DNA of 64,000 nucleotides, from NCBI GenBank assembly GCA_000002445.1, contig CP000069.1, positions 160,001 through 224,000 on the forward strand. Direction: 5' to 3'. This stretch comes from Trypanosoma brucei (lineage: Eukaryota). How positions within the stretch are numbered: position 1 is the stretch's first letter; each line of letters starts with the position of its first letter. This document shows positions 2,327 to 55,217 of this stretch, one piece after another. The notes under the pieces are model-generated. The model did no database searches, was not told the DNA's origin, and saw only the letters and a list, made by a program, of their open reading frames with translations. A program made the position numbers and the translations under genes.

Positions 2327-2443
2327 GTGTCACACATTACCGAAAATATGAGTTGGCAGGAAGGTGGTGGAAGAGGATGTGTGTGCCCTCATGGAAACTG
2401 CAGGCGGAACCTTACCGCAAGGAGCCCTGCAAGGCGTTACAGC

Positions 2444-6154: not shown

Positions 6155-7224
6155 TATCCTTCATGACATTGATGTATGTTTTGTTGTAAATGGATAATAA
6201 TGTTTATATAATATGTGCAAACTTTTTTTAGATACACTTCATATAGTGTTCTTCTAATACTTTGCTCCCCAACTTTTTGCGCATGCAATATTTCCCTCAT
6301 ATGTTGGGTGTTTAAATATTTTTATGCACAGGGATGCATTTTATTTCTGAAATGGGCACACCATTTTTTGATTGTAATATATGAAAGTCGTTAATTTTCT
6401 GTTTAACGTAGTGAGGGATGTGTGCATCCACGCCACCATTAATGCTTAAATTTTCGTAAATAATATCTTATTTAAATTTAAATTGCCGTCCGTGTGGGCC
6501 GTTGTCAAGTGAGGCGCTCCACCTCTAATGTGTTGTTAGGAGCTGTGTCCTTGCATTTAAAAATGTGTTTGATAATAAGGTGATGCCCATGAAGCGGAGG
6601 CTATAGCGAAGTAAAAGTGACCGCCGGTGCTTATTCCTCGCGTCTACCCTAATCTTTTTTTTTCATTCGGAGATGCTGGCTTGTAAGGTATCTCTTAATC
6701 ACCTTGCTGCATGTAACTATTTGCAATATCTGATACATGTGTATAACTTCCTTTATATTTCTCTATGGTTGCTGAAACTTTCCTCATATTCTCTCGCACA
6801 CTCTCTTTTACTCCTAGACAGTCAAGGAATATGAAACTGAGCAATGTCTGCCGTGATGTTGTGAGTTAAAATTTACAGTTTGAGTGTTAACTGTGACTGT
6901 TAGTGTGCTGTGTTTTTGTTAATGGCAATCCAGTTTATGATACTGTAATGTTCTATCTACACATTTACCCTTATGCCTAGTGATGTTATATGTTTTTGTA
7001 TCGGATACATGAATGATATGTGGGTGTATGGGGGAATGTGTGTTGAACTACTTTCTCGCTGTTATGGTTTGTGTAATGTTATCCACTACAGTAGTTCCCT
7101 TTCCCACGCTCTTACATATACATATGCAGTCTATTAATCTTGTACCAATACTTTGTTATTATGCCCTTTTTGTCCTGTAGTTTGAAAGTTGAATTACGTT
7201 GAGTTACTAGTATCACGGTTACCT

Positions 7225-10200
7225 CCATGCGTGAATTACATGCTAGAGATGGCGTAGTCACTTACGTAGTGTTTTTCTATGTTACTACAGCTGCTGGCTG
7301 AAGTATAGCTTGCAAATGGATTATTATGGGTAAGGGTATGCAACATGTTATACAGTGACAAGATCTCAGCAAAGGTATGTGATCCTATTATTGCAGGTTT
7401 CAACGCATCTATTACCAACGGGAAGTCGCTTCCGTGTGTCAGTGTGGCAGTTGCATATGTTCCGTCTCTGGATGACTTTGGATACGCCATCTGTACAACC
7501 AATTACGGTGATGAGTTTGCTATTATACTGGAATCTGTGGGTGACAAAAATACTCTCAACTTAACCAAATATTTCAATGAAAAGAATGCGTAGTTGATTT
7601 CTTACCTTTCACAGGATTCAGTAGGGTACACAGTTGGAATCCCAATTTATACCTCCTGGAAGCACCACTCGCCGTTGAGATGCTTGCTCTTTTCCGTTAT
7701 GCTATCACTCAGTTACGGTCACACCGACTGGATTTCATGTATTTGAAAGATGTTTCTTATGGTGATGATGAGTATAAGCTTGCTGCGTAGTTGGCAACAC
7801 GGATGAATCGCAAGTTGTTTAGTTGTTATTTTTTTGCATTGAAGAGTCAACTTGATAAGGAATCGGATAACAGGAGCTTCAGTGCGGAGTGTAATAAGGT
7901 TGCCGATACTGGACCTCAGGGAATGATTGTATTTGGTTCTCCAATCCCTGATATGAAGAGATTCCCCATGAAATGATTATATGACCACAGGACAAGAGGC
8001 GAATATTTATTCATACACCCTCTGCACTCCAACACGCCATCAAGAACAAGTGGGCATATAAATTGGGTAGAGACGAGTTTGTGGCTGCTAAGATAATAAT
8101 AACTGGGGCTGACCTAATTACGAAGGGTGACACATACAAAGCTGTCAGGCGTTTCAGAGATGATATGACTATGTTGTTAAAGGTTAATGGTAATAACTAT
8201 AAGCGCACAAGGTGGGATATTAACGAAAATAACTTCACCGAGCAAGACGCTGAAGCTGAGCTGACATTGAACAGATGGGTTGCTGGAGAGGTATTGAAAC
8301 AGGCACTGAGTTGTCACGAATAGCTAACTAGCAGGGGTGTATTTATGAAATCACTGTACAATAAACGTCGTTATCCAATTGATAATATTGTGGTTGGTGA
8401 CTTTGGTGGTGAGTGCCGTAATAAGGCGGGAGAGCGGGGTGTATCGTGTTTACGTAACCAAGGTGGGAGTGTGATGTGCGTGAAGAAGGTGGAAAAGGAT
8501 CTCCATCTGCACCCTATGAAGGAAGCTATATTAACCCTTGGTTCATCTCGCTGTTATCGAGACCTGCCACAGTTGTAGGGCCCATTGAGTGGGGTCATGT
8601 TTAATATAACCGATGACCCAAAGGCACTGCGTACTGCATAGATGGTATACGATGGTGTCCCTCATGTTGTTGGCAAAGGTCAGCTGGGTCACTCTGATAG
8701 TTTCTTTTTACACTGACTATCCTCGAAATCTTACGAAACTTGTGCAACTCTGTATAATGATGTTGAGAAACGAGTTGTAACTGCTGTGCTTGGTGTCGTG
8801 GATAATTCGTTACTACGGACGAAGGGTATGGCATTCATCGATCCTATAATACTCACATCACAACCGAGTAACCCCAGAAGGAATGTGATCCACCTGTTAC
8901 CAACAAATGAGCAGCAGTTATTTATGATAGTTGAGCATATTATACAAAATGGTGCAGGAAGGATGCATTTCATTGTGTGTCGTGGTGGTGATACGAGAGG
9001 AATTAGGAATATGTTGCAAAAACACTTGACAACTTTAACACATCACTAAGCTTCTTTGTTGCGAGTGGTGAAGGTCCTATTTTGAGAGACAAGCTGTCAA
9101 CTGCATGTGAGGTATTGGTTGTAGGTCTTATCCCATATAATATCCCCATAATCCTCTTTCACCCTAACAAACACCGTAATGCGCACGTCTTCGTCCTGTT
9201 CTTCGATGATGCACCAATCCACGGCGAACTCGTGAGTGCCTTCCATGAAGAGCCATTTTCTAACCGCTTGCTATTCGCAACGAATCTGTCACATCGGAGG
9301 GATAAGATCACGGAGTCCAAAACAGTACGTGAGTTCCGCAAGATCGTGCAGAATGAGTCGAAGTGGAAGCCGTTGTCACTACTTGGGTCTGCCATCGCAT
9401 ACGCAATGGGAAGTGTCCTGCAATGTATGGGTCGTTTGGAGACAAGTGTACGAACGAAACTTGACTTGAGGCGAAGCACTGTTGTCAACTGTGGTGCGAT
9501 GCATATTTTTGTATGGTCGATGTCACATGTTCTAAACCCTTTTGTGTCCTCTGCGCTGTCGTCTGCCACACTGTCAGTGACCTATGATGAACCGAGATGG
9601 ATCCAACAGATAACTGAGCAAATTGCCGCTATTGCAGTTGGCTTCGTCGTAATCTTGGTGCCGCTTGTTACGGTTCTTGTGGTTGTTATATTAGCAACAC
9701 ACCGGAATGCTCGTGATAACAATCTTGCACCCAAGGAACAAACTGACCCCGTGACACTAATATTTACTGACATTGAGAGCAGCACTGCGTTGTGGGCTGC
9801 ACACCCTGAACTGATGCCTGTTGCCGTTGCAACACATCACTATTTGATTCGTTCACTGATTGGGAGGTATAAGTGCTACGAAGTCAAAACTGTAGGGGAT
9901 TCGTTCATGATAGCGAGTAAGAGTCCTTTCGCTGCCGTCCAACTCGCACAGGAACTACAGCTGTGTTTCTTGCAGCATGACTGGGGAACAAATGCAGTTG
10001 ATGATTCCTACTGGGAATTTGAGCAGCAGCGTGCGGAGGAGGACGAGAAGTACACACCGCCAACTGCGCGGTTGGACCTCAAAGTGTACAGTCGTTTGTG
10101 GAATGGCCTGCGTGTACGTGTTGGAATTCACACCGGGTTGTGCGATATCCGACACGATGAAGTGACGAAGGGATATGACTACTATGGGCGGACTCCAAAC

Positions 10201-12105
10201 ATGGCAGCAAGGACGGAGAGTGTAGCAAATGGTGGTCAGGTGCTGATAACGCATGAGGTTTACATGTCATTTTCAGCTGAGGAGCGTGAGCAAATTGATG
10301 TCACTGCACTTGGTGATGTTGCACTTCGTGGCGTGAATGATCATGTGGAAATGTACCAGTTGAATGCCGTGCCTGGTCGCAACTTTGCTGCATTACGGCT
10401 GGAACGTGAACTCTTTGATGAAGACGAGGATGGCACGACAACCTCCACCAGCGACCACAGTTCTTCACGTGCGGAGCTGAGTGAATCAGCACAATCGATA
10501 TTGAACTCACTGCAGTCTGTTTTCCGAACTTTTAAAGCAGCGCAACGGGGGAGTCTTCTGGCGTCGCTTTGTGAGCGTTGGCGTGTGCCTCTTCCCCGTG
10601 AAGCTGCATTCGAGTGGGATGACGCCTACTGTGAGGAAGTGGTGCGTCGCATTGCAGTTAAGGTTGGGCGTGTCGCTGACCGTAGCGCTCAAAGTGGAAG
10701 CAGTGAAGCTTCTGTGAGTACTGAAGAGGGCTCAATCATAATTGTTCCATTCGTTGGTTCACATTTCAGAGAAGGCCACTTTGGGTGTTCGCTTCCGTCG
10801 TTACATTAGTGGTAGTGTTGCACGTCATAAAGCGTACAAATCTCTTAGTTTTACTCGGCGGAAAAGTTAATTAGCATACCGATTGTAGTAGTTGTTAGTG
10901 AATTTTAACGTAGTCTCGGTAGGGTTTGTCTTTTGTATCTATTTTTATCTTTTGCCATCTATTTATTATTACATTTTTTACATTCTATTTTTGGTGGCTG
11001 CTGCCTCTGCATTAAAGCACATACTAATCTTAAGAGGGAACATGCCCTCTGTTAGATTACACATGCGTTGTCTTTCAAGACACTGAATTAACACATGCAT
11101 GTGTTTTGCCGTGTCAGCGCCGGTTGGTTTCTTACTGTTCCAAATCCGACACTTATGGAAGACAGGACGGCTCAACATTTCTTCTAATTTAACCAAAACG
11201 TTTTTGTTCTGTGAGTAATCACAAAATGGGATTAGCTATGTACTTTCCCTAAGGGCTCTCTTTTTTATTTGTGTCCTTGCCATTTGAGGCTTTAAGAAAA
11301 GTAAGGTGAAACATTTCTTTTTCAACACGTCTGTCCTTAAGCGTGCGAGTGCATGACTATTTTTTTTAAACATTCCACCTCTCACGCCCAATCCCGCAGC
11401 CTTTCGGGTACAAAACTGTGTTTCCGTGTGTGTCTGCGTCACGTTTTTCTTTTTGAATCCACTTAATGCTAGCGGTGTCTTTAAATATTTTTTCATAATG
11501 AGTGTTATGTTGCATGTGTGTATGTATGTGTTGGGTGTTATGTGGGCTGTTGTATCTCTCTCTTCGGATATACAACCCTTATCACCCTCTGCATTGATGT
11601 TACATGTTGTTTCACCAGTTGCATGCTTTTTTCCCCTTCACTCATTTGTGTTGCCGTAAGGATTTAAGGTATGCGATTGCCTCCATTCCCTCCAGAGTGT
11701 GATGTCGATGCATGGGCTTAGTTATGCACTGAAACCCGCGTTGCCTCGCAGTATAACAAAGTTCCTTCACCATCACAGTTATTGCAGCTTATACTAATTA
11801 TAGTATTGTGAGGGAGTTTTGTAACACGTTCACTCTGTTAATATTGCTGAGCCTATAATATCCTTCTGTTATTTACAACACTGTTTGGACACCCGAGGGG
11901 AGTGCAGAAATGCCGCTCCTTTATAGGGACAAACCTCATTTATCCGTATTTTGTGGTAATTCAAGACTGAACCCTTGACGTTTTAACTGTGTGATGAGGA
12001 GCTACGACGAGTTGTGGCGGGAGGGAGCGTCTACGTCGCTGCAGTGTGTAACCTCAACTGAGCATTTGGCATAACCTCTACATGCTTCCCTTTACATCAT
12101 GTGTG
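7225..12105. repeat. left arm of a large inverted repeat, about 4.88 kb; the partner arm is 22411-27295
   Basis: Every ORF in 7236-11659 has a mirror copy on the opposite strand with coordinate sum about 34516-34520 (7236..7502(-) vs 27018..27284(+); 9082..10809(+) vs 23707..25434(-); 11426..11659(+) vs 22854..23090(-)). Similarity is lost left of about 7225 (vs 27295) and right of about 12105 (vs 22411). Confidence 0.85.
7340..10809 (+). pseudogene. GRESAG4/ESAG4 adenylate cyclase pseudogene. The N-terminal domain is fragmented over at least 4 frames. The C-terminal TM plus catalytic region survives as an intact 575-aa ORF at 9082..10809.
   Basis: Consecutive ORFs in different frames align in order to the N-terminal domain of copy 1: 7345..7593 (IIAGFNASIT ~ INAGFDASLS), 7620-7760 (LAVEMLALFRYAITQLR ~ NAELLALIRYAVVYLR), 8063..8323 (WVAGEVLKQAL ~ WLAGEVLFQAL), 8345..8578 (YNKRRYPIDNIVVGDFGGEC ~ YKQRRYVIDDLVVGDFGGEC) and 8786..9049 (RRNVIHLLP). 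The 9082..10809 ORF is then about 95% identical to the copy-1 catalytic domain. No signal peptide or 5' end is present. Confidence 0.8.
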
Positions 12106-16914: not shown

Positions 16915-19706
16915 ATTAGTTCATTTTATTCCTCTCATTTCTTCGTGGCCAGCGAAGGAAAAAAAAAAAACGACAACGCCATGGAAAAACAGTAATGAGT
17001 CCATGCCAAAAACGTCGCGCCTCCCCAGGAGAACACGAGAGGACGTCCCGTGCCACGCACGCGCACGAAAAAACAAACAAACAAACGGTAATATGCACTC
17101 TTGTAGGGAAGTGAAATGAATATGCTCCCACACTTCTGCTAGAATCAGAATGACTATACCTACCGCTCCAACTCCGGCCGTATGGGTGAAGATGGCTCGG
17201 TTAACATACTCACGTGGATGGTTCACCAAACTTTCAGTCCCCCCCCCCCAGCAGCACAATTCGAAGTGTGTAGCAACCATTGCTATTGTAAGCGCGAATG
17301 TCTTTCATGCTGAACTGTTGACAGGCGGCATTCCATCCAGTTGTCAATATTCCCCCGTTAAATGGCCATAAAAAGGCATAATGCGCGACCCCTCCCAGTA
17401 ACTATCATGTGATCCCACCCGCCAGCGGGGCCCGCGAGCACATAGGGACCACCACTGGATTATTACATGTATCATTTCCCCACTGGACGCAGTGGAATCG
17501 GCGCCGGATGCCATGTCCATGCCCTAAAGGGAGTTTCCTCCTGAACATGAATTGTTCGACGGATGGAATGCTGAAAGAGTTTGGGGGGAATACCTTGTTT
17601 GAGAGTCTGTAGTACATGAGGGTGTGGCAGATGGTTTCGTCCCATTTTTCACTGTTTTTGGAGAAGGTGGATGTTCGATGCGCATATCGCCGGTGGATAG
17701 CACTCCGCTGTGTGGCATTGAACTGCACCACTTTAAAATGCGGTACGTGATGCGATCCGCCTGCTGTGTTGATAAATGCAGTCGCAAAGTCAAGGGTATG
17801 CTCAGTGGTTGTTCAATACGGCCGGATCTTGGAAAAGGAACTCAGAGCAACCACACACCATATAAGGACCCCTTTTTGCACCTACGCCGCTGCCATCTCA
17901 TCGCTGAGACGCTGGAGGTGGAGAATTAGCGGGCCGCAGCGCTGGAGTGCCCGCTCTCGAGCGGCATCGTGGCAGCGGACCACAAAATTACTACGATGTT
18001 ACTCTCATTTCTGTGAGAACACAATGTAGACGTAACACGCTCCCCCAGCCCACCAACTACGACACTCTCAAGTCTTGGGGCAATCTCCACAAAATGCGTA
18101 GCGAAAGCAGCGGAGAGCAGTCACCGCTTTTTGATTCTTCAAAACAGATGCATGGACTGAAGAAAAGCTGCACCAAAGTCCTGTTCTGCGCGCAACTTAC
18201 GTGGTGGAAGGCATAAATTGGCACAACAAACGCACGGAAAGTAGTATGAGCACTTCGTTTTTTCTGACTGTGCCGAATGAGGAGACATCGCATGGTGCAA
18301 ACACCGGAGAGAATAAACGGGGAAAATGTTAAGACAGCACAACAGTGACCGAGCACAGTGTTCAGAGTAAACCGTCCCGTTCGTACGTTCTGAAATTCCC
18401 GCACAAAGCGCCGTCACTGTTGCTGCTGCATATCGTAGTTGTAGTTATAAAAAATACCAAACCTGACATGCGGCGAAGTGCTCCCACATAGCCCACCAAA
18501 GCTCCTGTTTCTTCTGGCACTTCGTTCCGAAGTTGCCCTATCAGCGTACTCCGCTGAAAAATATTGTCCGTAACACAATTTTCCGAAAGGAACTGCGACA
18601 GCATATGCCGCCGAGAACACCGACAACCAGGACTACGAATGGCATTTTGCTGCGCCTGGGAAACGCGTTCTACAGCGGGAACAGCAACGTGCCGCGACGC
18701 TGCTGACTTCAAACCGTCTGGTGAACGTAACCCCTTTGAACTAACAGGCACATATCGACGCAGGTAAAGCGCTGACAACATCCGAGCATCCGATCTATTG
18801 ACATTCTATCTCTTTGCTTAAGTTACAATCAACGAGGTGGACAGTTTACAACAATAACAATGAACTATCCTTTCAACTCATGTATAGTGCTTGGTCAATT
18901 GCCTTCACTTGGTCCTTTCCACGATCTGTACCGGACCCAGCAACACACAACGGTACAAGCGGATATTTTCAATCCGTAAAGACAGTGACACTACCAGTAA
19001 TACGTGTCAGCAATATACCTGTCTTTGCACCCGCGTTACATTCCACAGTTCAAACCGTCCCAGTTTGCTGTTGTTTTCCATATATCACAGCGCCCTGCAG
19101 CAGGGCAGTGAAGAGAACGACCATCCGTGCGAAGCCGCATGCCGTCATGCTTATCTCAGTGCCCATTGTTAGTATTACTTGCTTGTCAGTCTATGGGTCG
19201 CGCGTGAAAGAAAACAGGTTAGGAAGAGTAAGCACAAAACAAGGTGAACAAGGAAGATGATCACATCGCAATTGACCTGCATTGTAGAAACACCGCCCCG
19301 TTAAAATACGCGGAGAGTGATGAAGATATTGATCTGCTACACGAAATAGAACGCTACAAGGGAAAAGCAAAAACAGAGGAAAACACGATGCGCGGAAGCG
19401 GCCTCATTCACACGTCCAATGGAGCTCTGAACAGGGTGCGCAATTCCGCAATACCCCTGAGGGAGGGGAAATAAATAGGAATAGAGGAACAAATGGTTTT
19501 ATAACTGACACTTAATAGGCTCTCACTTAGCATCTTAGAGGAAATGGATGTTCATAAAATCGCTCACATAAAAAAAAGATAAAACGAAAATAAAACGATT
19601 AGTGGAAGTTGTTCTACTAGTTGCGTGTTATGGGCCAAACGAGTATCTACCCGTATCTTGTTATGGCTTATATGAGTAACACTGCACAGCCGGTAGGCCG
19701 CACAAG

Positions 19707-20657
19707 TCAGCACACAATTGCGAGGGAAAAAAAGACGATGAGTAGACACAATTCACCACCTACACAGATCGTAATGTGCGACAAGGAAGTCAATGTCGTC
19801 TCCGCCTCTCCTTTTGGTTTGGGAGTTGCCGAAGGTTGATCTTGAGAATTTGTAGACTCCTCATCTGAATGCAAACTTTCGTTGATTACTGCTAGCTCCT
19901 CATTGGCAGTGGAGTTTCCATTACCTGGAACGGGATGCGATGGCTGTGGAACTGTAACTTCGCAGAGGGCAGCGAAATAAGTTAGTGACTTGTATCCAGG
20001 TGCCTTACCCCCGGGCTTGTTGCCAGAAACTTCGCCGCCATCAAACCAACCGAACCACTTCGTCACGTTAGTGTACCAACCCATCACGTGCAATTGGCCA
20101 TCCTGAGGATAACTTTGCGCAAAAAACGACGGATAACCACCCAATGCGCCTGAACCACTTTTATAAGTGTACGATCCCCGCCAGAATGCAACGCCGTTGC
20201 CCTCTATTCCCGATGCTTCAAACAGACCACTGTTCCATCGGTAGACGCAATTAAGGGAAGTATCGTAGTCTCCTGCTGTGCAACGAATTCCCGCGTCCTG
20301 TGCCGCACTTGCACTGTAAGTGGCATCCCCTCCAAGGTAACTGTAGATAAATGGGCCATCAGCTACACCCAAGTGGTAGGCAGTGAGGCGTTCGTTAGTT
20401 GCCTGCGAGTGGTCAGTGGCCAGCGTCCCGCCGGCTTCACGGCAGATATGCACTGAGTTACTGTAGTCTACAAGGTAATCACCTCCATGCCAAAACTTTC
20501 GGTTGGGGAAAAGAATATACTCCTTGACATAGGCAGTTGGGTACACCTTACCAAATGCGAAGAGATGTGATGAACCTGAAAGACATTGCAGCAGGGCAGT
20601 GAAGAGAACGACCATCCGTGCGAAGCCGCATGCCGTCATGCTTATCTCAGTGCCCAT
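19707..20657 (-). CDS. secreted or GPI-anchored cysteine-containing protein with a C-type-lectin-like domain signature, copy 1
   Basis: A 316-aa ORF with an N-terminal signal peptide (MVVLFTALLQCLSGSS) and a C-terminal hydrophobic tail (ICVGGELCLLIVFFSLAIVC) after a Ser/Thr/Pro-rich acidic linker. The core shows CTLD-like landmarks: HICREAGGTLATDHSQATNERL (~C...G..LASI.S.EE..FL), WFGWFDGG (~W.W.DG) and a terminal YFAALCEV (~FVCE). Confidence 0.55.
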   Translation of the reverse strand: MGTEISMTACGFARMVVLFTALLQCLSGSSHLFAFGKVYPTAYVKEYILFPNRKFWHGGDYLVDYSNSVHICREAGGTLATDHSQATNERLTAYHLGVADGPFIYSYLGGDATYSASAAQDAGIRCTAGDYDTSLNCVYRWNSGLFEASGIEGNGVAFWRGSYTYKSGSGALGGYPSFFAQSYPQDGQLHVMGWYTNVTKWFGWFDGGEVSGNKPGGKAPGYKSLTYFAALCEVTVPQPSHPVPGNGNSTANEELAVINESLHSDEESTNSQDQPSATPKPKGEAETTLTSLSHITICVGGELCLLIVFFSLAIVC

Positions 20658-21197
20658 TGTTAGTATTACTTGCTTGTCAGTCTATGGGCCGCGCGTGAAA
20701 GAAAACAGGTTAGGAAGAGTAAGCACAAAACAAGGTGAACAAGGAAGATGATCACATCGCAATTGACCTGCATTGTAGAAACACCGCCCCGTTAAAATAC
20801 GCGGAGAGTGATGAAGATATTGATCTGCTACACGAAATAGAACGCTACAAGGGAAAAGCAAAAACAGAGGAAAACACGATGCGCGGAAGCGGCCTCATTC
20901 ACACGTCCAATGGAGCTCTGAACAGGGTGCGCAATTCCGCAATACCCCTGAGGGAGGGGAAATAAATAGGAATAGAGGAACAAATGGTTTTATAACTGAC
21001 ACTTAATAGGCTCTCACTTAGCATCTTAGAGGAAATGGATGTTCATAAAATCGCTCACATAAAAAAAAGATAAAACGAAAATAAAACGATTAGTGGAAGT
21101 TGTTCTACTAGTTGCGTGTTATGGGCCAAACGAGTATCTACCCGTATCTTGTTATGGCTTATATGAGTAACACTGCACAGCCGGTAGGCCGCACAAG

Positions 21198-22148
21198 TCA
21201 GCACACAATTGCGAGGGAAAAAAAGACGATGAGTAGACACAATTCACCACCTACACAGATCGTAATGTGCGACAAGGAAGTCAATGTCGTCTCCGCCTCT
21301 CCTTTTGGTTTGGGAGTTGCCGAAGGTTGATCTTGAGAATTTGTAGACTCCTCATCTGAATGCAAACTTTCGTTGATTACTGCTAGCTCCTCATTGGCAG
21401 TGGAGTTTCCATTACCTGGAACGGGATGCGATGGCTGTGGAACTGTAACTTCGCAGAGGGCAGCGAAATAAGTTAGTGACTTGTATCCAGGTGCCTTACC
21501 CCCGGGCTTGTTGCCAGAAACTTCGCCGCCATCAAACCAACCGAACCACTTCGTCACGTTAGTGTACCAACCCATCACGTGCAATTGGCCATCCTGAGGA
21601 TAACTTTGCGCAAAAAACGACGGATAACCACCCAATGCGCCTGAACCACTTTTATAAGTGTACGATCCCCGCCAGAATGCAACGCCGTTGCCCTCTATTC
21701 CCGATGCTTCAAACAGACCACTGTTCCATCGGTAGACGCAATTAAGGGAAGTATCGTAGTCTCCTGCTGTGCAACGAATTCCCGCGTCCTGTGCCGCACT
21801 TGCACTGTAAGTGGCATCCCCTCCAAGGTAACTGTAGATAAATGGGCCATCAGCTACACCCAAGTGGTAGGCAGTGAGGCGTTCGTTAGTTGCCTGCGAG
21901 TGGTCAGTGGCCAGCGTCCCGCCGGCTTCACGGCAGATATGCACTGAGTTACTGTAGTCTACAAGGTAATCACCTCCATGCCAAAACTTTCGGTTGGGGA
22001 AGAGAATATACTCCTTGACATAGGCAGTTGGGTACACCTTACCAAATGCGAAGAGATGTGATGAACCTGAAAGACATTGCAGCAGGGCAGTGAAGAGAAC
22101 GACCATCCGTGCGAAGCCGCATGCCGTCATGCTTATCTCAGTGCCCAT
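21198..22148 (-). CDS. secreted or GPI-anchored C-type-lectin-like protein, copy 2 (100% identical to copy 1)
   Basis: Identical 316-aa translation at offset 1491. Confidence 0.55.
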   Translation of the reverse strand: MGTEISMTACGFARMVVLFTALLQCLSGSSHLFAFGKVYPTAYVKEYILFPNRKFWHGGDYLVDYSNSVHICREAGGTLATDHSQATNERLTAYHLGVADGPFIYSYLGGDATYSASAAQDAGIRCTAGDYDTSLNCVYRWNSGLFEASGIEGNGVAFWRGSYTYKSGSGALGGYPSFFAQSYPQDGQLHVMGWYTNVTKWFGWFDGGEVSGNKPGGKAPGYKSLTYFAALCEVTVPQPSHPVPGNGNSTANEELAVINESLHSDEESTNSQDQPSATPKPKGEAETTLTSLSHITICVGGELCLLIVFFSLAIVC

Positions 22149-22410
22149 TGTTAGTATTACTTGCTTGTCAGTCTATGGGCCGCGCGTGAAAGAAAACAGG
22201 TTAGGAAGAGTAAGCACAAAACAAGGTGAACAAGGAAGATGATCACATCGCAATTGACCTGCATTGTAGAAACACCGCCCCGTTAAAATACGCGGAGAGT
22301 GATGAAGATATTGATCTGCTACACGAAATAGAACGCTACAAGGGAAAACATAGTTGGAAGGTGAGAGTGGCAGTAAATACTAAGAGCATGGAGAAAAAAC
22401 ACATAAAAAA

Positions 22411-25400
22411 ATATAATGTAAAGGGAAGCATGTAGAGGTTATGCCAAATGTTCAGTTGAGGTTACACACTGCAGCGACGTAGACGCTCCCTCCCGCCACA
22501 ACTCGTCGTAGCTCCTCATCGCACAGTTAAAACGTCAAGGGTTCAGTCTTGAATTACCACAAAATACGGATAAATGAGGTTTGTCCCTATAAAGGAGCGG
22601 CATTTCTGCACTCCCCTCGAGTGTCCAAACAGTGTTGTAAATAACAGAAGGATATTATAGGCTCAGCAATATTAACAGAGTGAACGTGTTACAAAACTCC
22701 CTCACAATACTATAATTAGTATAAGCTGCAATAACTGTGACTGTGAAGGAACTTTGTTATACTGCGAGGCAACGCGGGTTTCAGCACATAACTAAGCTCA
22801 TGCATCGACATCACACTCTGGAGGGAATGGAGGCAATCACATACCTTAAATCCTTACGGCAACACAAATGAGTGAAGGGAAAGAAAGCATGCAACTGGTG
22901 AAACAACATGTAACATCAGCAATGCAGAGGGTGATAAGGGTTGTATATCCGAAGAGAGAGATACAACAGCCCACATAACACCCAACACATACAAACACAC
23001 ATGCAACATAACACTCATTATGAAAAAATATTTAAAGACATCGCTAGCATTAAGTGGATTCAAAAAGAAAAACGTGACGCAGACACACACGGAAACACAG
23101 TTTTGTACCCGAAAGGCTGCGGGATTGGGCGTGAGAGGTGGAATGTTTAAAAAAAATAGTCATGCACTCGCACGCTTAAGGACAGACGTGTTGAAAAAGA
23201 AATGTTTCACCTTATTTTTCTTAAAGCCTCAAATGGCAAGGACAAAAATAAAAAAGAGAGCCCTTAGGGAAAGTACATAGCTAATCCCATTTTGTGATTA
23301 CTCACAGAACAAAAACGTTTTGGTTAAATTAGAAGAAATGTTGAGCCGTCCTGTCTTCCATAAGGGTCGGATTTGGAACAGTAAGAAACCAACCGGCGCT
23401 GACACGGCAAAACACATGCATGTGTTAATTCAGTGTCTTGAAAGACAACGCATGTGTAATCTAACAGAGGGCATGTTCCCTCTTAAGATTAGTATGTGCT
23501 TTAATGCAGAGGCAGCAGCCACCAAAAATAGAATGTAAAAAATGTAATAATAAATAGATGGCAAAAGATAAAAATAGATACAAAAGACAAACCCTACCGA
23601 GACTACGTTAAAATTCACTAACAACTACTACAATCGGTATGCTAATTAACTTTTCCGCCGAGTAAAACTAAGAGATTTGTACGCTTTATGACGTGCAACA
23701 GTACCACTAATGTAACGACGGAAGCGAACACCCAAAGTGGCCTTCTCTGAAATGTGAACCAACGAATGGAACAATTATGATTGAGCCCTCTTCAGTACTC
23801 ACAGAAGCTTCACTGCTTCCACTTTGAGCGCTACGGTCAGCGACACGCCCAACCTTAACTGCAATGCGACGCACCACTTCCTCACAGTAGGCGTCATCCC
23901 ACTCGAATGCAGCTTCACGGGGAAGAGGCACACGCCAACGCTCACAAAGCGACGCCAGAAGATTCCCCCGTTGCGCTGCTTTAAAAGTTCGGAAAACAGA
24001 CTGCAGTGAGTTCAATATCGATTGTGCTGATTCACTCAGCTCCGCACGTGAAGAACTGTGGTCGCTGGTGGAGGTTGTCGTGCCATCCTCGTCTTCATCA
24101 AAGAATTCGCGATCCAGCCGTAATGCAGCAAAGTTGCGGCCAGGCACGGCATTCAACTGGTACATTTCCACATGATCATTCACGCCACGAAGTGCAACAT
24201 CACCAAGTGCAGTGACATCAATTTGCTCACGCTCCTCAGCTGACAGTGACATGTAAACCTCATGCGTTATCAGCACCTGACCACCATTTGCTACACTCTC
24301 TGTCCTTGCTGCCATGTTTGGAGTGCGCCCATAGTAGTCATATCCCTTCGTCACTTCATCGTGTCGGATGTCGCACAACCCGGTGTGGATTCCAACACGT
24401 ACACGCAGGCCATTCCACAAACGACTGTACACTTTAGGGTCCAACCGCGCAGTTGGCGGTGTGTACTTCTCGTCCTCCTCCGCACGCTGCTGCTCAAATT
24501 CCCAGTAGGACTCATCAATCGCATTTGTTCCCCAGTCATGCTGCAAGAAACACAGCTGTAGTTCCTGTGCGAGTTGGACGGCAGCGAAAGGACTCTTACT
24601 CGCTATCATGAACGAATCCCCTACAGTCTTGACTTCGTAGCACTTATACCTCCCAATCAGTGAACGAATCAAATAGTGATGTGTTGCAACGGCAACAGGC
24701 ATCAGATCAGGGTGTGCAGCCCACAACGCAGTGCTGCTCTCAATGTCAGTAGATATTAGTGTCACGGGGTCAGTTGGTTCCTTGGGTGCAAGATTGTTAT
24801 CACGAGCATTCCGGTGTGTTGCTAATATAACAACCACAAGAACCGTAACAAGCGGCACCAACATTACGACGAAGCCAACTGCAATAGCGGCAATTTGCTC
24901 AGTTATCTGTTGGATCCATCTCGGTTCATCATAGGTCACTGACAGTGTGGCAGACGACAGCGCAGAGGACACAAAAGGGTTTAGAACATGTGACATCGAC
25001 CATACAAAAATATGCATCGCACCACAGTTGACAACAGTGCTTCGCCTCAAGTCAAGTTTCGTTCGTACACTTGTCTCCAAACGACCCATACATTGCAGGA
25101 CACTTCCCATTGCGTAAGCGATGGCAGACCCACGTAGTGACAATGGCTTCCACTTCGACTCATTCTGCACGATCTTGCGGAACTCACGTACTGTTTTGGA
25201 CTCCGTGATCTTATCCCTCCGATGTGACAGATTCGTTGCGAATAGCAAGGGGTTAGAAAATGGCTCTTCATGGAAGGCATTCACGAGTTCGCCGTGGATT
25301 GGTGCATCATCGAAGAACAGGACGAAGACGTGCGCATTACGGTGCTTGTTAGGGTGAAAGAGGATTATGGAGATATTATATGGGATAAGACCTACAACCA

Positions 25401-27295
25401 ATACCTCACATGCAGTTGACAGCTTGTCTCTCAAAATAGGACCTTCACCACTCGCAACAAAGAAGCTTAGTGATGTGTTAAAGTTGTCAAGTGTTTTTGC
25501 AACATATTCCTAATTCCTCTCGTATCACCACCACGACACACAATGAAATGCATCCTTCCTGCACCATTTTGTATAATATGCTCAACTATCATAAATAACT
25601 GCTGCTCATTTGTTGGTAACAGGTGGATCACATTCCTTCTGGGGTTACTCGGTTGTGATGTGAGTATTATAGGATCGATGAATGCCATACCCTTCGTCCG
25701 TAGTAACGAATTATCCACGACACCAAGCACAGCAGTTACAACTCGTTTCTCAACATCATTATACAGAGTTGCAGAAGCTTCGTAAAATTTCGAGGATAGT
25801 CAGTGTAAAAAGAAACTATCAGAGACCCAGTTGACCTTTGCCAACAACATGAGGGACACCATCGTATACCATCTATGCAGTACGCAGTGCCTTTGGGTCA
25901 TCGGTTATATTAAACATGACCCCACTCAATGGGCCCTACAACTGTGGCAGGTCTCGATAACAGCGAGATGAACCAAGGGTTAATATAGCTTCCTTCATAG
26001 GGTGCAGATGGAGATCCTTTTCCACCTTCTTCACGCACATCACACTCCCACCTTGGTTACGTAAACACGATACACCCCGCTCTCCCGCCTTATTACGGCA
26101 CTCACCACCAAAGTCACCAACCACAATATTATCAATTGGATAACGACGTTTATTGTACAGTGATTTCATAAATACACCCCTGCTAGTTAGCTATTCGTGA
26201 CAACTCAGTGCCTGTTTCAATACCTCCCCAGCAACCCATCTGTTCAATGTCAGCTCAGCTTCAGCGTCTTGCTCGGTGAAGTTATTTTCGTTAATATCCC
26301 ACCTTGTGCGCTTATAGTTATTACCATTAACCTTTAACAACATAGTCATATCATCTCTGAAACGCCTGACAGCTTTGTATGTGTCACCCTTCGTAATTAG
26401 GTCAGCCCCAGTTATTATTATCTTAGCAGCCACAAACTCGTCTCTACCCAATTTATATGCCCACTTGTTCTTGATGGCGTGTTGGAGTGCAGAGGGTGTA
26501 TGAATAAATATTCGCCTCTTGTCCTGTGGTCATATAATCATTTCATGGGGAATCTCTTCATATCAGGGATTGGAGAACCAAATACAATCATTCCCTGAGG
26601 TCCAGTATCGGCAACCTTATTACACTCCGCACTGAAGCTCCTGTTATCCGATTCCTTATCAAGTTGACTCTTCAATGCAAAAAAAAAAAAATAACAACTA
26701 AACAACTTGCGATTCATCCGTGTTGCCAACTACGCAGCAAGCTTATACTCATCATCACCATAAGAAACATCTTTCAAATACATGAAATCCAGTCGGTGTG
26801 ACCGTAACTGAGTGATAGCATAACGGAAAAGAGCAAGCATCTCAACGGCGAGTGGTGCTTCCAGGAGGTATAAATTGGGATTCCAACTGTGTACCCTACT
26901 GAATCCTGTGAAAGGTAAGAAATCAACTACGCATTCTTTTCATTGAAATATTTGGTTAAGTTGAGAGTATTTTTGTCACCCACAGATTCCAGTATAATAG
27001 CAAACTCATCACCGTAATTGGTTGTACAGATGGCGTATCCAAAGTCATCCAGAGACGGAACATATGCAACTGCCACACTGACACACGGAAGCGACTTCCC
27101 GTTGGTAATAGATGCGTTGAAACCTGCAATAATAGGATCACATACCTTTGCTGAGATCTTGTCACTGTATAACATGTTGCATACCCTTACCCATAATAAT
27201 CCATTTGCAAGCTATACTTCAGCCAGCAGCTGTAGTAACATAGAAAAACACTACGTAAGTGACTACGCCATCTCTAGCATGTAATTCACGCATGG
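22411..27295. repeat. right arm of the large inverted repeat. It contains an inverted partial R spacer at 22411-23150.
   Basis: Reverse complement of 7225-12105. For example 22423-22450 'ggaagcatgtagaggttatgccaaatg' is the reverse complement of 12078-12105. The lectin tandem array abuts it at about 22350-22411. Confidence 0.85.
23707..27176 (-). pseudogene. GRESAG4/ESAG4 adenylate cyclase pseudogene, inverted duplicate of 7340-10809
   Basis: ORF 23707..25434 (575 aa) differs from 9082..10809 at only about 12 residues. The upstream fragment ORFs (25467..25730, 25936..26169, 26191..26451, 26927..27175) mirror the left-arm fragments exactly. Confidence 0.8.
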
Positions 27296-30200
27296 GGTGA
27301 CTGTAGGCGTGAGTCGCACGATGAACGGCGCGTGTCGATTCCCTGAATCCATTTCTTGGTAAAATTTAGGGGCTGCATTTGGATGCAGTGCGATCACACG
27401 AAGTAGCTGCGTTTCCCGTTGAACCAAAGCACATAACTTACATCGACAATCCTTTGTAGCAGTGCGGAGGCCCGCGCTCGGCCATGCCGACCCGCTGAAG
27501 TCGATCTTCGTCGGGGGGGGGGGAGGGGAACGGTTTTTTATTTGCCCTCCACGCTCAACTTTGACAACGTCAAAGGGCGTAGTTGGAGGTGTCGGGACAC
27601 GCCTGGCTTCGCAGAGCGCTTGTTTGCCTTCCAATTGGATACTGAGGACATCCTTGGTGGTGGGGAAGTGCCTCAACTAAGGGCGGAGTGAACGGTTTCT
27701 TGACATTGCTTTTTTCTCATTTTCACGGGGATGCCGCGCCATTCAATCCGTTTGGAGAACCATGTAGATCCTTTCCTCGTGGGGACGCCAACCGGGCAGG
27801 GCGCACGTGCCGGTGCCTCAGTCGCCTTCCTCTGCGGGTTGGCTAATTTAGTAGATGCCCCTTGGGGTTTTGGGAGGTGGTGCTGCGGTGCCACTGGGCG
27901 TGGTGACGCCTTGATCACCCTTGAGGATTGGGAGGGGCAAGTGGTGTGGCGATGGCCGCTTACCCGCGCCGTGGCTGACATTCTTTTAGCTTTCGGGGTT
28001 GCGTTAGCTGCCGCGCGGTGCCAAAAAAGTGCTAAGGGGAGGGATAATGTGGCCTTCAACCTCGCTCGGGGCGTTGGGCGCGTACAGCGCGTTTGGAAGA
28101 AGTGGCTTCCGCCGTCTGGGGTGCCGGTGGCGTGTGCCTCGTGCGGTTGGTTTTTCTCTTCAGGAGATGGGACTGATCAATGCTTGGGGGTTAGAACTTC
28201 TGTCTCCTTGTGTTCGCTTGTGGGGAGCTAGTGGGGCGCAGGCCGCCCGCTAGCAGGAGGTAGCAAAGGTGCGTGGAAGTTCCGGCCACTTTAAAGGATA
28301 TGAAACTGAAGGGGAGATATCGCCTCCAAGGCACCCTAGGGAGTCGCGGTTTAGCAGCACTGTCCCTTGGGGGCTGCTGCCGCATGATCGTGTTGCCGGA
28401 GCCCGCTATTTCGTATCTTCGGGCGCCAGCTGGGGGGGGGGGGGGGCGGCGGGTTTCTCCACTTGGAGACCCCCACCGTGCTCGGGCGCCGTCATTTAAT
28501 CGGCGGTCCCTCGGGAAAGAAAGGGACCTGTATGGGCATTCCGGGTGGGGGGATTTTTTTTTTGTGTGCGCAGGCGCGCTTCAATTGCGTAGTATCAATA
28601 GAAGGATTGAACATCCCCCCTGAAACGAAGTATCAATCGCGTGCTGACACTCGATTCTGTGTTCGTGATACCGGTGTTTGTGCTGAGCGTTGCTTGTACT
28701 GCTTGACTGTGTGGGCCGCACACTGCGGTATGCTTGAGAGGGAAAGAAAAAGAAAGGATATCCTCCACGACGGTTAGAGACTATATGTCAAGGATAAAAG
28801 GAAAAGGGGCAGATATAAAGAGGTATTCAGTTATGCAGTGTGTGTATGTGTGGATCTGTGGTTGCGGGATACTCCACACTTCTTTTGTTTTTTTTATTAC
28901 GAGTGAACACGTTGCTGTGCACGGTGAACGTCCCTCCCACGACCGAAGGATTTTTTAATTCTGATAATGCGGATATCCGTAAAGTTCCGTCCTTTTCTTT
29001 GTGTTACAAGGGGTCGTGTGTCTTTCACTCATGCAGTTTGATTTTATTTTCGTCGACTCCTGGAATTATCTGTGTTATTTATTTTAATTCCGTTCGTGTG
29101 ATTCCGATATACCTCTTTTGGTTGTTTCCTATTAGGTGGTCGGCTACAATGTTAACTTTTCGCTGATGTTTGTGAGTCTTCTGTGCACTTTTCCTATTGG
29201 CCTTTGCAAATGGGTGTTGATCTTCATAGTGCATAGACGGTTTGCGAGGATGTTGGGACCATGCAATCACTTTGGCGGTGCGTCCGTTCTTTTTCTTTTT
29301 GGAGAAAAATATTGCGTACATTTATTCACTTAATTTTGTCGGTGGCCTCTGCTATGTTTTTTGATTGTGCTTGTTTTTCTAGGAGAATCCGCACCTTCTT
29401 TAATTTTGAGGTTGTATAAGCAGTTGTTTTGTAGTATAAGTAAGGAGACATATGCTACAATGTTTTTGTAAACATTATGTTCGGGTACATACGAAATATT
29501 TTACTGCTTCCTTTTTCCGCTGAACTTGGGGTGAAGTTCCTACGTTTTTATTCTGTTTCATTAAGGTAACCCAAGTTCCTTTTCTTTCGTTGCCTTCTCC
29601 CTCTGGACACAACACGGGCGGTCGAATATGACTGCTTATATCAAGGCATCGCGACGGCGTTAGAAAACAAAGGTGACGTGTGTAATAACTTTCGCTTGGC
29701 CGGAGGGTCATGTTTCTGCCTCTTTGTTTTTTGCGTCGTGAAATGGTGACCTGGTTTTTGTGTACCGAGCATGTACTTTTTCATATTATCATATTCCACG
29801 AAGATTTCAAGTATTGTCACATACTTTGCCCGTGGTAGGTGCTACCCAGGCCATGCTTCCAGAGGTAATAATGATAGTTTCAGCGAAGTGTGTTGTCGAT
29901 GATGTTATCGGCGGTTTTGCATAATCGTTTGTCGTGTTTTATCTGTTGTGGCAACCTCGTTAATATACAGTTAGACGTTAATTTACATATTTTGCGGTTC
30001 GGTCATAAGCCATAAGTTTTCTAGAAGTGGGTGTGTTTGTTACCCCTTTTACACTCACTGTTAGAAGATGTTTTACGTGTCTACTACTCGGCTATTGTAT
30101 TTGGCCGCAATATATTCGGGGAGACGGCTTTGATATGGATCTGACTCGTCATGTGTGTATCTGCATGCGTGCATAAAGTGTAGAGGAGGAAAGTGCAGGT

Positions 30201-44516: not shown

Positions 44517-44956
44517 CCCAATCCCGCAACCTTTTGGGTACAAAACTGTGTTTCCGTGTGTGTCTGCGTCACGTTTTTCTTTTTTTGAATCCACTTAATG
44601 CTAGCGATGTCTTTAAATATTTTTTCATAATGAGTGTTATGTTGCATGTGTGTTTGTATGTGTTGGGTGTTATGTGGGCTGTTGTATCTCTCTCTTCGGA
44701 TATACAACCCTTATCACCCTCTGCATTGCTGATGTTACATGTTGTTTCACCAGTTGCATGCTTTCTTTCCCTTCACTCATTTGTGTTGCCGTAAGGATTT
44801 AAGGTATGTGATTGCCTCCATTCCCTCCAGAGTGTGATGTCGATGCATGAGCTTAGTTATGTACTGAAACCCGCGTTGCCTCGCAGTATAACAAAGTTCC
44901 TTCACAGTCACAGTTATTGCAGCTTATACTAATTATAGTATTGTGAGGGAGTTTTG
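44517..44956 (+). repeat. partial GRESAG4-array spacer repeat (440 bp, equal to R1 positions 21-476)
   Basis: It begins 586 bp after the copy-2 stop. ORF 44432..44794 shares the MSVMLHVCLYVLGVMWAVVSL peptide with the other copies. Identity ends abruptly at 44957. Confidence 0.75.
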
Positions 44957-46149: not shown

Positions 46150-47458
<1,309 letters not shown>

Positions 47459-50400: not shown

Positions 50401-50649
50401 CGCTGATTCACCACAAAGTGCTTTTCAGTGCCCCCAAACTGGATTGCCAAACTTCTGACAAGTGTATTGTTCCGAGTATGGTGAGCGGACCCCTTCTCTA
50501 TTATCAATTCTCAAAAACTCTTCGGGAGTCAGGGCCCACGGAACCGAGGGGGCGGATGAGGGAGAGGGGGAAACAACAATTCCGCACCGCGAACAGGCAC
50601 CGCTCCCCTGGACCTCTTCCTCAGATGTGAGGTGCAGTCAGCCTTTGTT

Positions 50650-50975: not shown

Positions 50976-51008
50976 AGACTTCAATTACACCAAAAAGTAA
51001 AATTCACA

Positions 51009-55200: not shown

Positions 55201-55217
55201 TATATATATATATATAT
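55201..55217. repeat. (TA)8 microsatellite; second copy at 62609-62625
   Basis: Seen directly in the sequence. Confidence 0.9.

What the first reader, a model, noticed from the sequence alone, without database searches (positions are those of the whole stretch)
19096..22350. Tandemly amplified secreted protein with an apparent C-type-lectin-like domain in a trypanosome
Two 100%-identical 316-aa genes plus partial units share a 1491-bp period. Each encodes a signal peptide, a Cys-containing domain with CTLD-like landmarks (C-x3-GG-x-LA near HICREAGGTLAT, WFGWFDGG, terminal LCEV), a Ser/Thr/Pro acidic stalk and a GPI/TM tail. CTLD proteins are not a recognised component of trypanosome surface repertoires, so this may be an undescribed surface or secreted family. 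It could alternatively be an ESAG9-like cysteine-rich secreted protein. Perfect identity of the copies indicates very recent amplification or homogenisation.
Basis: partly seen in the sequence, partly recalled or inferred. Interest (0 to 1): 0.65.

Follow-up and report, generated by a model that had tools for sequence, protein, structure and literature searches.

The report
Known trypanosome IGP34 lectin-like genes

Summary
Two 316-aa ORFs lie on the minus strand (19707-20657 and 21198-22148) in a 1491-bp tandem repeat of 2.2 units. The proteins are identical and the coding sequences differ by one synonymous base. A third copy is cut off after 24 codons.

The novelty claim is wrong. The protein is 100% identical to T. 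brucei TREU927 XP_845161/XP_845162. Its N-terminus is the one printed for Tb927.6.380 in Allison et al. 2014, and that paper's IGP34 qRT-PCR primers match both copies exactly. The same family is Fam77 'lectin-like membrane protein' (Jackson 2013) and TcoClec (Thonnus 2017). Nothing supports ESAG9.

One point stays open. IGP34 has no cytoplasmic tail and only a marginally hydrophobic C-terminal anchor, and it was never localised because a C-terminal HA tag gave no signal. A GPI-anchored or surface form is therefore not excluded. The canonical Ca2+/sugar-binding motifs (EPN, WND) are absent, so lectin activity is unproven.

Verdict: already known, low interest.

The parts
21198..22148 (-). IGP34 gene copy A, the promoter-proximal copy on the minus strand. 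It encodes 316 aa (33.9 kDa) and is probably Tb927.6.380.
   Evidence: ORF listed. The protein is 100% identical to T. brucei TREU927 XP_845161/XP_845162. PF16825 matches at E = 4.2e-73. The published IGP34 primers match at 21723-21742 (-) and 21344-21363 (+). The gene number is inferred from gene order relative to HpHbR.
19707..20657 (-). IGP34 gene copy B. It encodes 316 aa, with a protein identical to copy A and one synonymous difference in codon 49. It is probably Tb927.6.370.
   Evidence: The primers match at 20232-20251 (-) and 19853-19872 (+).
19959..20477 (-). CTLD of copy B, residues 61-233. The same domain in copy A lies at 21450-21968. Four Cys are conserved across the family: C72, C126, C137 and C232.
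19776..19952 (-). Ser/Thr/Pro/acidic stalk of copy B, residues 236-294. It carries two N-glycosylation sequons, N248 and N259. The same stalk in copy A lies at 21267-21443.
   Evidence: Composition and sequons. The AF2 model has pLDDT below 50 here, consistent with disorder.
19710..19775 (-). C-terminal hydrophobic anchor of copy B, residues 295-316 (ITICVGGELCLLIVFFSLAIVC). No cytoplasmic residues follow it. The same anchor in copy A lies at 21201-21266.
   Evidence: Hydropathy. AF2 predicts a helix at residues 291-315. The family alignment shows that paralogues continue with a CC motif plus a PMxLRE tail, and IGP34 does not. Its hydrophobicity lies between paralogue TM segments and the HpHbR GPI signal.
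19095..19166 (-). Truncated third copy. It keeps the first 24 codons of IGP34, then diverges and hits a stop. This marks the downstream edge of the array.
   Evidence: tblastn gives 24/24 identical residues. The sequence was read.
20658..21197 (-). Intergenic spacer of 540 nt between copies A and B. It repeats at 19167-19706. It contains polypyrimidine tracts, with an AG 27 nt upstream of the ATG. I infer it carries the polyadenylation and trans-splicing signals.
   Evidence: The sequence was read. The processing signals are an inference from the sequence and were not tested.
22149..22348 (-). The 200 nt upstream of copy A that are identical to the 5' flank of copy B. This marks the upstream edge of the repeat.
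   Evidence: Base-by-base comparison. The repeat finder gives 92% identity over 22078-22377.

Best explanation
The locus is the two-gene IGP34 tandem array of Trypanosoma brucei TREU927 chromosome 6, Tb927.6.370 and Tb927.6.380. Together these two genes make up the whole IGP34 subfamily of the published 'invariant glycoprotein' family.

Each gene encodes a membrane glycoprotein built from four parts: a cleavable signal peptide, a divergent C-type-lectin-like domain with four conserved cysteines, a short disordered glycosylated Ser/Thr/Pro/acidic stalk, and a C-terminal hydrophobic anchor.

By analogy with the characterised paralogues IGP40 and IGP48, the CTLD most likely faces the lumen of the early secretory pathway. 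There it would act by oligomerising or binding partner proteins, an ERGIC-53-like cargo or ER-conditioning role, with highest demand in stumpy forms. The published mRNA is about 10-fold higher in stumpy cells, and knock-down slows growth.

The canonical Ca2+/sugar ligands are missing, so binding is probably not classical Ca2+-dependent carbohydrate recognition.

The near-identity of the copies reflects recent duplication, or gene conversion within a polycistronic unit, which is the usual way trypanosomes raise gene dose.

Shown here: gene identity, fold, architecture and array structure. Taken from the literature: stage regulation and the RNAi phenotype. Inferred: localisation, binding mode and function of IGP34 itself.
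For: - The protein is 100% identical over 316/316 residues to T. brucei TREU927 AAZ11602/AAZ11603 (XP_845161/XP_845162), on a contig of 1,618,915 bp.
- The N-terminus equals that printed for Tb927.6.380 in the supplement of PMC4497807. The supplement alignment lists Tb927.6.370 and Tb927.6.380, and its figure legend gives 'IGP34 (two genes)'.
- The published IGP34-RTF and IGP34-RTR primers match both copies with 0 mismatches in convergent orientation.
- The calculated mass is 33.9 kDa.
- Pfam PF16825 gives 245 bits against a cut-off of 22.6.
- Four Cys are conserved family-wide.
- Only 25 cluster representatives out of 1.84 billion proteins match at E <= 1e-3, which fits a lineage-restricted family.
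- Literature: the family occurs in tandem arrays; IGP40 and IGP48 are ER-localised through their lumenal domain; IGP34 mRNA is about 10-fold up in stumpy forms; RNAi causes a growth defect.
- The neighbourhood fits the published T. brucei locus: GRESAG4 adenylate cyclases and the HpHbR gene.
Against: - IGP34 itself has never been localised. C-terminal HA tagging gave no signal by immunofluorescence or Western blot, so ER residence is extrapolated from paralogues that share only 25-60% identity.
- IGP34 lacks the cytoplasmic tail present in most family members.
- It also lacks the IGP48 repeat ('trimerisation') region that Allison et al. link to oligomerisation.
- Orthologous family members in T. 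congolense are reported at the cell surface.
- No ligand is known for any family member, and IGP48 knock-down caused no bulk N-glycan defect.
- The AF2 model is of moderate quality (mean pLDDT 67), and disulfide pairing could not be measured.
Confidence: 0.9

Rival explanations
1. IGP34 is a GPI-anchored protein, or otherwise C-terminally processed, that reaches the cell surface or flagellar pocket, mainly in stumpy forms. On this reading the C-terminal hydrophobic segment is a GPI-addition signal that is cleaved off, not a transmembrane helix.
For: - The protein ends with the hydrophobic segment and has zero cytoplasmic residues, whereas paralogues continue with CC plus a tail of 50-120 residues.
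- On a crude Hessa-scale sum its best 19-mer scores -0.7. Paralogue TM segments score -6 to -7, and the GPI signal of HpHbR in the same window scores +4.25.
- Small residues (T-S-L-S, residues 289-292) lie about 9 residues before the hydrophobic core, where an omega site could sit. This is read from the sequence.
- A C-terminal HA tag gave no signal despite repeated attempts. That is the expected result if the tag is removed together with a GPI signal.
- T. congolense relatives are surface-exposed.
Against: - The Allison et al. pipeline removed proteins predicted as GPI-anchored by GPI-SOM and Big-PI, and IGP34 passed as a type I TMD protein.
- The 22-residue segment is long and hydrophobic enough to span a bilayer, and AF2 models it as a 25-residue helix.
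- The candidate omega+2 positions are not clearly optimal.
- No GPI predictor could be run here.
- The missing HA signal could equally reflect instability or low expression.
Confidence: 0.2
2. The genes encode a new, undescribed CTLD surface or secreted family.
For: The CTLD fold is real, and GenBank still labels the proteins 'hypothetical protein, conserved'.
Against: - A dedicated Pfam family exists for this domain, created from the IGP paper.
- These exact genes were named IGP34 and were studied by qRT-PCR, tagging and RNAi.
- The family was also catalogued as Fam77 and as TcoClec.
Confidence: 0.01
3. The genes encode an ESAG9-like cysteine-rich secreted protein.
For: None beyond a loose resemblance: a signal peptide, a few cysteines, and stumpy-enriched expression, which from general knowledge is also reported for ESAG9.
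Against: The only Pfam hit at E <= 10 is PF16825. The fold is a CTLD. All sequence relatives align over the IGP domain. No ESAG9 sequence was available for a direct comparison.
Confidence: 0.01
4. The perfect duplication is an assembly artefact: a collapsed or falsely expanded repeat rather than two real genes.
For: Near-identical tandem units are hard to assemble, and copy number in such arrays is often mis-estimated.
Against: The units carry two distinguishing substitutions, and the array has defined, unique edges on both sides. Two separate GenBank protein records exist, and the paper counts two IGP34 genes in TREU927. Only one T. b. gambiense record was seen, with a 13-aa stalk insertion. 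That points to real variation in copy number and sequence.
Confidence: 0.05

Closest known systems
IGP34 (Tb927.6.370 / Tb927.6.380), invariant glycoprotein family, Allison et al. 2014 (PMC4497807); Pfam PF16825 (DUF5075)
   Same: It is the same gene pair. The protein sequence is identical, the published primers match exactly, the calculated mass is 34 kDa, there are two tandem copies, and the PF16825 match is full length.
   Different: Nothing differs in sequence. This analysis adds a fold-level confirmation of the CTLD and the absence of EPN/WND ligands. It also shows that IGP34 alone lacks a cytoplasmic tail and has a weak anchor.
IGP48 and IGP40 of T. brucei (ER-localised paralogues)
   Same: They share the signal peptide, the CTLD with the same four Cys and the Y-P-x-x-G and W-[YF]-D motifs, a stalk, a C-terminal hydrophobic segment, tandem arrays and stumpy up-regulation.
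   Different: In the alignment made here, the IGP48-like representative P0005 is 36% identical to IGP34 and the IGP40-like representative P0007 is 34%. The paper reports 50-60% for IGP48 against IGP34. IGP48 has DENTTV repeats in its stalk. Both paralogues have strongly hydrophobic TM segments followed by a CC motif and a cytoplasmic tail with PMxLRE. IGP34 has none of these. Their ER localisation is demonstrated, whereas that of IGP34 is not.
TcoClec / Fam77 'lectin-like membrane proteins' of T. congolense (Thonnus et al. 2017, PMC5349194; Jackson et al. 2013, PMC3605285)
   Same: The paper itself places TcoClecs in the same family: CTLD, signal peptide, TM domain, four conserved Cys, and species-specific tandem duplicates.
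   Different: They are reported as exposed on the surface of bloodstream forms and carry a tandem amino-acid repeat. IGP34 has no repeat, and its location is unknown.
Metazoan CTLDs (collectin-11, tetranectin, SP-D, conglutinin)
   Different: - Sequence identity is only 16-22%, and Pfam PF00059 gives no hit.
- EPN/QPD is replaced by Y-P-x, and WND by W-[YF]-D.
- The second Cys pair (C126/C137) is not at the canonical beta3/post-beta4 positions.
- The long-loop region is much larger, so the domain has 173 residues against about 120.
ERGIC-53 (LMAN1) cargo receptor
   Same: Allison et al. propose the analogy: a type I membrane protein with a lumenal lectin-type head on a stalk, which oligomerises, works in the early secretory pathway, and gives no bulk phenotype on depletion.
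   Different: There is no sequence relationship. From general knowledge, the ERGIC-53 head is an L-type (legume-like) lectin fold, not a CTLD. ERGIC-53 sorts through cytoplasmic motifs, which IGP34 cannot carry because it has no tail.

Membership tests
IGP family (Pfam PF16825 / Fam77) - subfamily IGP34 | Significant full-length match to the family-defining domain PF16825 | tested here: met
   E = 4.2e-73, 245.1 bits against a cut-off of 22.6, profile positions 1-173 of 173.
IGP family (Pfam PF16825 / Fam77) - subfamily IGP34 | Sequence identity with the published IGP34 genes Tb927.6.370/380 | tested here: met
   The protein is 100% identical to TREU927 XP_845161/XP_845162. The N-terminus matches the Tb927.6.380 row of the supplement alignment. 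Both IGP34 qRT-PCR primers match exactly in both copies.
IGP family (Pfam PF16825 / Fam77) - subfamily IGP34 | Core polypeptide of about 34 kDa | tested here: met
   The calculated mass is 33,928 Da.
IGP family (Pfam PF16825 / Fam77) - subfamily IGP34 | N-terminal ER signal sequence | tested here: inconclusive
   A hydrophobic segment spans residues 9-28, and AF2 predicts a helix at 10-27. No signal-peptide predictor was available here. The published screen selected these genes with SignalP.
IGP family (Pfam PF16825 / Fam77) - subfamily IGP34 | At least one N-glycosylation sequon | tested here: met
   Sequons are present at N197 (NVT), N248 (NST) and N259 (NES). Whether they are occupied was not tested.
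IGP family (Pfam PF16825 / Fam77) - subfamily IGP34 | Type I topology with a C-terminal transmembrane domain | tested here: inconclusive
   A 22-residue hydrophobic C-terminus is present. It has no cytoplasmic residues and only marginal hydrophobicity compared with paralogue TM segments. TM and GPI signal cannot be told apart here.
IGP family (Pfam PF16825 / Fam77) - subfamily IGP34 | Tandem array in a housekeeping (non-telomeric expression-site) region | tested here: met
   There are 2.2 tandem units of 1491 bp. Neighbouring genes include an M20 peptidase, a zinc-finger protein, an LRR protein, GRESAG4 and HpHbR. No telomeric repeats were seen in the tandem-repeat scan.
IGP family (Pfam PF16825 / Fam77) - subfamily IGP34 | ER localisation | not testable with these tools
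   This is not established for IGP34 even in the literature, because the HA-tagged protein was undetectable.
Canonical C-type lectin / CTLD superfamily | CTLD fold (beta1-alpha1-alpha2-beta2-long loop-beta3-beta4-beta5) | tested here: met
Canonical C-type lectin / CTLD superfamily | Conserved alpha1-beta5 cysteine pair (C1-C4) | tested here: inconclusive
   C72 lies in helix 65-74 and C232 in strand 230-235, and both are conserved in 20 of the 20 sequences that cover these columns.
Canonical C-type lectin / CTLD superfamily | Second canonical cysteine pair (beta3 to the loop after beta4) | tested here: not met
   There is no Cys between residues 138 and 231. The second conserved pair, C126/C137, lies in the long-loop region before beta3.
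Canonical C-type lectin / CTLD superfamily | Ca2+/carbohydrate ligands: EPN or QPD before beta3 and WND in beta4 | tested here: not met
   At the topologically equivalent positions IGP34 has Y183-P184-Q185 and W204-F205-D206. The family consensus is Y-P-x and W-[YF]-D, with N at the middle position in only 1 of 21 sequences. The equivalence rests on the positions of secondary-structure elements, not on a residue-level structural alignment.
Canonical C-type lectin / CTLD superfamily | Match to Pfam PF00059 (Lectin_C) | tested here: not met
   No PF00059 hit appears even at E <= 10. Sequence searches against PDB CTLDs give only weak matches restricted to the N-terminal half: E = 0.17 for the single sequence and E = 0.002-0.03 for the profile. 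Allison et al. report a weak hit at 1.24e-4.
ESAG9 | Sequence similarity to ESAG9 proteins | not tested
   No ESAG9 sequence or model was available. The result is indirectly negative, because the protein is fully accounted for by PF16825 and a CTLD fold.
GPI-anchored surface proteins | C-terminal GPI-addition signal (omega site, spacer, hydrophobic tail at the very C-terminus) | tested here: inconclusive
   The tail lies at the very C-terminus, and its hydrophobicity is intermediate between the HpHbR GPI signal and paralogue TM segments. GPI-SOM and Big-PI did not flag it in the published screen. No predictor was run here.

The most novel reading that the evidence does not exclude
IGP34 differs from its ER-resident paralogues. 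It lost the cytoplasmic tail and kept only a marginally hydrophobic C-terminal segment. That segment may be a GPI-addition signal, which would make IGP34 a GPI-anchored, stumpy-induced CTLD protein on the cell surface or flagellar pocket. This would also explain why the published C-terminal HA tag was never detected.
Probability: 0.2. Interest if true: 0.45.

Novelty: already known. Interest (0 to 1): 0.1.

Why it matters
The locus itself adds little, since the genes, the family, its lectin-like domain and its tandem organisation were published in 2013-2017.

What this analysis contributes:
- It confirms the previously weak, sequence-based CTLD assignment at the level of fold.
- It shows that the classical Ca2+/sugar ligands are absent across the whole family.
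- It shows that IGP34 has an atypical tail-less, weakly hydrophobic anchor.

IGP34 is the only subfamily that was never localised. The anchor finding suggests a cheap experiment (tag it N-terminally or internally, then test PI-PLC sensitivity) that could show whether a stumpy-stage lectin-like protein reaches the parasite surface.

Tried and rejected
- The search for homologous proteins with the single sequence returned only the protein's own cluster, so it gave no diverse homologues. The exhaustive HMMER search supplied the 24 relatives used for the alignment and the AF2 run.
- The look-up of encoding contigs found no record for the exact protein, so there is no independent view of copy number in other assemblies.
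- Fold search against afdb50 was unavailable.
- AF2 model coordinates are not exposed to the Python sandbox. Disulfide distances and a residue-level superposition on a Ca2+-binding CTLD could not be computed.
- Full-text search for Tb927.6.380 mostly returned prefix matches to Tb927.6.3800 (mtHsp70). The only extra mention of Tb927.6.370 is an uninformative row in a table of an RBP6 study.
- I looked for a remnant of the family's cytoplasmic tail (PMxLRE) in all three frames downstream of the stop codon and found none.
- The ESAG9 reading and the 'new family' reading were considered and rejected on the Pfam and literature matches.

Full report
**Observation**

The window holds two ATG-initiated 316-aa ORFs on the minus strand, at 19707-20657 and 21198-22148, and their translations are identical. 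A direct repeat with a 1491-bp period runs from 19096 to about 22348, which is 2.18 units. Only two substitutions separate the overlapping units. One of them is a synonymous CTC/CTT change in codon 49, so the coding sequences are 950/951 identical rather than 100%.

The array has defined edges. Upstream, 200 nt of shared 5' flank end at 22348. Downstream, a third copy keeps only the 5' flank and the first 24 codons (19095-19166), then diverges into a short dead-end frame. The spacers carry polypyrimidine tracts and an AG 27 nt before each ATG. That is what trans-splicing would need, but this point is an inference.

**What the protein is**

Pfam gives a single, full-length hit: PF16825 'IGP family C-type lectin domain' (DUF5075), E = 4.2e-73, 245 bits against a cut-off of 22.6, covering residues 61-233.

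The protein is 100% identical to two adjacent T. brucei brucei TREU927 records (AAZ11602/AAZ11603, XP_845161/XP_845162) on a 1,618,915-bp contig. Near-identical orthologues exist in T. b. gambiense and T. b. equiperdum.

Allison et al. 2014 (PMC4497807) defined the 'invariant glycoproteins' IGP34, IGP40 and IGP48. PF16825 was created from that work. The paper's representative IGP34 is Tb927.6.380. The supplement prints an N-terminus for it that is the same as this ORF's, and lists Tb927.6.370 and Tb927.6.380 as 'IGP34 (two genes)'. The paper's IGP34 qRT-PCR primers each match both copies with no mismatch and face each other across a 399-bp amplicon, against 0 matches expected by chance. The calculated mass is 33.9 kDa.

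The same family is Fam77 'lectin-like membrane protein' in the 2013 cell-surface phylome, which describes it as species-specific clades of near-identical tandem duplicates. It is also the TcoClec family of T. congolense. The locus is therefore already known down to the gene.

**Is it really a CTLD?**

Sequence evidence alone is weak.
- phmmer against PDB sequences aligns only residues 59-93 to conglutinin and SP-D, at E = 0.17-0.8.
- A family profile reaches E = 0.002-0.03 against DEC-205 and SP-A, again only over the N-terminal half.
- PF00059 does not appear.

I therefore built an alignment of 25 family representatives found by exhaustive HMMER and ran AlphaFold2 on it. The mean pLDDT is 67 and the domain core scores 70-87. 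The order of elements is strand 44-50, helix 65-74, helix 85-98, strand 103-111, a long loop, then strands 190-196, 201-207 and 230-235, which is the CTLD topology.

**How it departs from a classical C-type lectin**

- Four cysteines (C72, C126, C137, C232) are conserved family-wide. C72 and C232 sit at the canonical alpha1 and beta5 positions.
- The second pair lies in the long-loop region, not at the canonical beta3/post-beta4 positions.
- The Ca2+/sugar ligand motifs are absent. Where EPN/QPD would lie the family has Y-P-x-x-G (YPQDG in IGP34). Where WND would lie it has W-[YF]-D (WFD in IGP34).

'C-type-lectin-like' is justified. 'Lectin' is not demonstrated.

**Rest of the architecture**

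After the domain comes a 59-residue stalk that AF2 leaves disordered. It contains 9 Ser, 6 Thr, 7 Pro and 9 Asp/Glu, and carries two sequons. The T. b. gambiense orthologue has a 13-residue insertion at this point.

The protein ends in a 22-residue hydrophobic segment, ITICVGGELCLLIVFFSLAIVC, with nothing after it. Most other family members in the alignment continue with a CC motif and a cytoplasmic tail of 50-120 residues containing a conserved PMxLRE motif. No remnant of such a tail lies downstream of the IGP34 stop codon.

On a crude Hessa-scale sum the IGP34 segment scores -0.7. The TM segments of IGP48-like and IGP40-like relatives score -6 to -7, and the GPI signal of the HpHbR gene in the same window scores +4.25.

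**Mechanism**

The best-supported reading is the published one. IGPs are membrane glycoproteins whose CTLD faces the lumen of the early secretory pathway. IGP40 and IGP48 are retained in the ER through that lumenal domain and oligomerise. Knock-down of each subfamily slows growth, and IGP48 loss disturbs ER morphology. The authors propose an ERGIC-53-like cargo or ER-conditioning role around the slender-to-stumpy transition, with IGP34 mRNA about 10-fold up in stumpy forms.

For IGP34 itself, localisation and function are extrapolated. The C-terminally HA-tagged protein was never detected.

Near-identical tandem copies inside one polycistronic unit are the usual trypanosome route to higher gene dose, and they are kept alike by gene conversion or recent duplication. 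This follows from established knowledge and from the Fam77 description.

**Rival still standing**

The tail-less, marginally hydrophobic C-terminus and the undetectable C-terminal tag are also what a cleaved GPI-addition signal would produce, and T. congolense relatives are surface-exposed. Against this, the published pipeline filtered with GPI-SOM and Big-PI and kept IGP34 as a type I protein, and the segment is long enough to span a bilayer. I put this reading at about 0.2.

The 'new family' and ESAG9 readings are rejected. An assembly artefact is unlikely, given the diagnostic substitutions, the unique array edges and the two GenBank records.

**Context**

Coding strand and GC skew switch at about 14 kb and about 28 kb, so the IGP34 array sits in a minus-strand block. 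That block is bracketed by a 4.9-kb inverted repeat of 98.7% identity carrying truncated GRESAG4 adenylate-cyclase ORFs. Further along lie full-length GRESAG4 genes, an M20 peptidase, an LRR protein, the haptoglobin-haemoglobin receptor gene and a 7.2-kb tandem duplication. This matches a chromosome-internal region of T. brucei chromosome 6.

**Verdict**

The novelty claim is wrong, so the finding is already known and interest is low at 0.1. The one loose end worth an experiment is how IGP34 is anchored and where it resides.

Noticed in passing
window 7221-12100 (+) and 22413-27298 (-): A 4.9-kb inverted repeat (98.7% identity over 4889 bp). Each arm carries a 575-aa truncated GRESAG4-type adenylate cyclase ORF (9082-10809 + and 23707-25434 -) plus about 1.3 kb of downstream sequence. 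The arms bracket a 10.3-kb segment containing a zinc-finger ORF and the IGP34 array. The inner edge of the right arm lies about 50-65 nt from the array's upstream edge. The segment could be invertible, or the product of an inverted duplication.
   Followed up: partly
window 46178-47458 (+): The haptoglobin-haemoglobin receptor gene (Pfam PF20933, E = 1.8e-101). Its C-terminal GPI-type signal was used here as an in-window control for tail hydrophobicity.
   Followed up: partly
window 49360-56593 and 56779-64000: A tandem duplication of about 7.2 kb at 98-99.6% identity that runs off the end of the window. Each unit holds a 208-aa ORF with no Pfam hit, a 457-aa ORF with a VSG_B domain (the two proteins are identical; E = 1.1e-23), a (CTGAAC)n microsatellite of about 24 units, and a 69-bp repeat present in 2 copies.
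   Followed up: partly
window about 14000 and about 28000: The coding strand and the sign of GC skew switch: + for 1-14 kb, - for 14-28 kb, and + for 28-64 kb. This implies a convergent and a divergent strand-switch region flanking the block that contains IGP34.
   Followed up: no
window 2327-6154 (+), 40172-43930 (+): Two full-length GRESAG4-type receptor adenylate cyclases of 1275 and 1252 aa. They share 94-98% identical stretches with each other and with the truncated copies. A conserved downstream element of about 600 bp follows each cyclase gene (230-529, 11595-11894, 44730-45029, and inverted at 22400-22999).
   Followed up: no
window 19095-19166 (-): A dead-end remnant of a third IGP34 copy. 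It has 24 IGP34 codons followed by 14 unrelated codons and a stop, and it marks the downstream recombination edge of the array.
   Followed up: yes
protein P0004 (258 aa, closest non-brucei relative, 43% identity): The nearest relative outside T. brucei ends in the stalk with no hydrophobic C-terminus at all. It could be a secreted family member or a truncated gene model.
   Followed up: no
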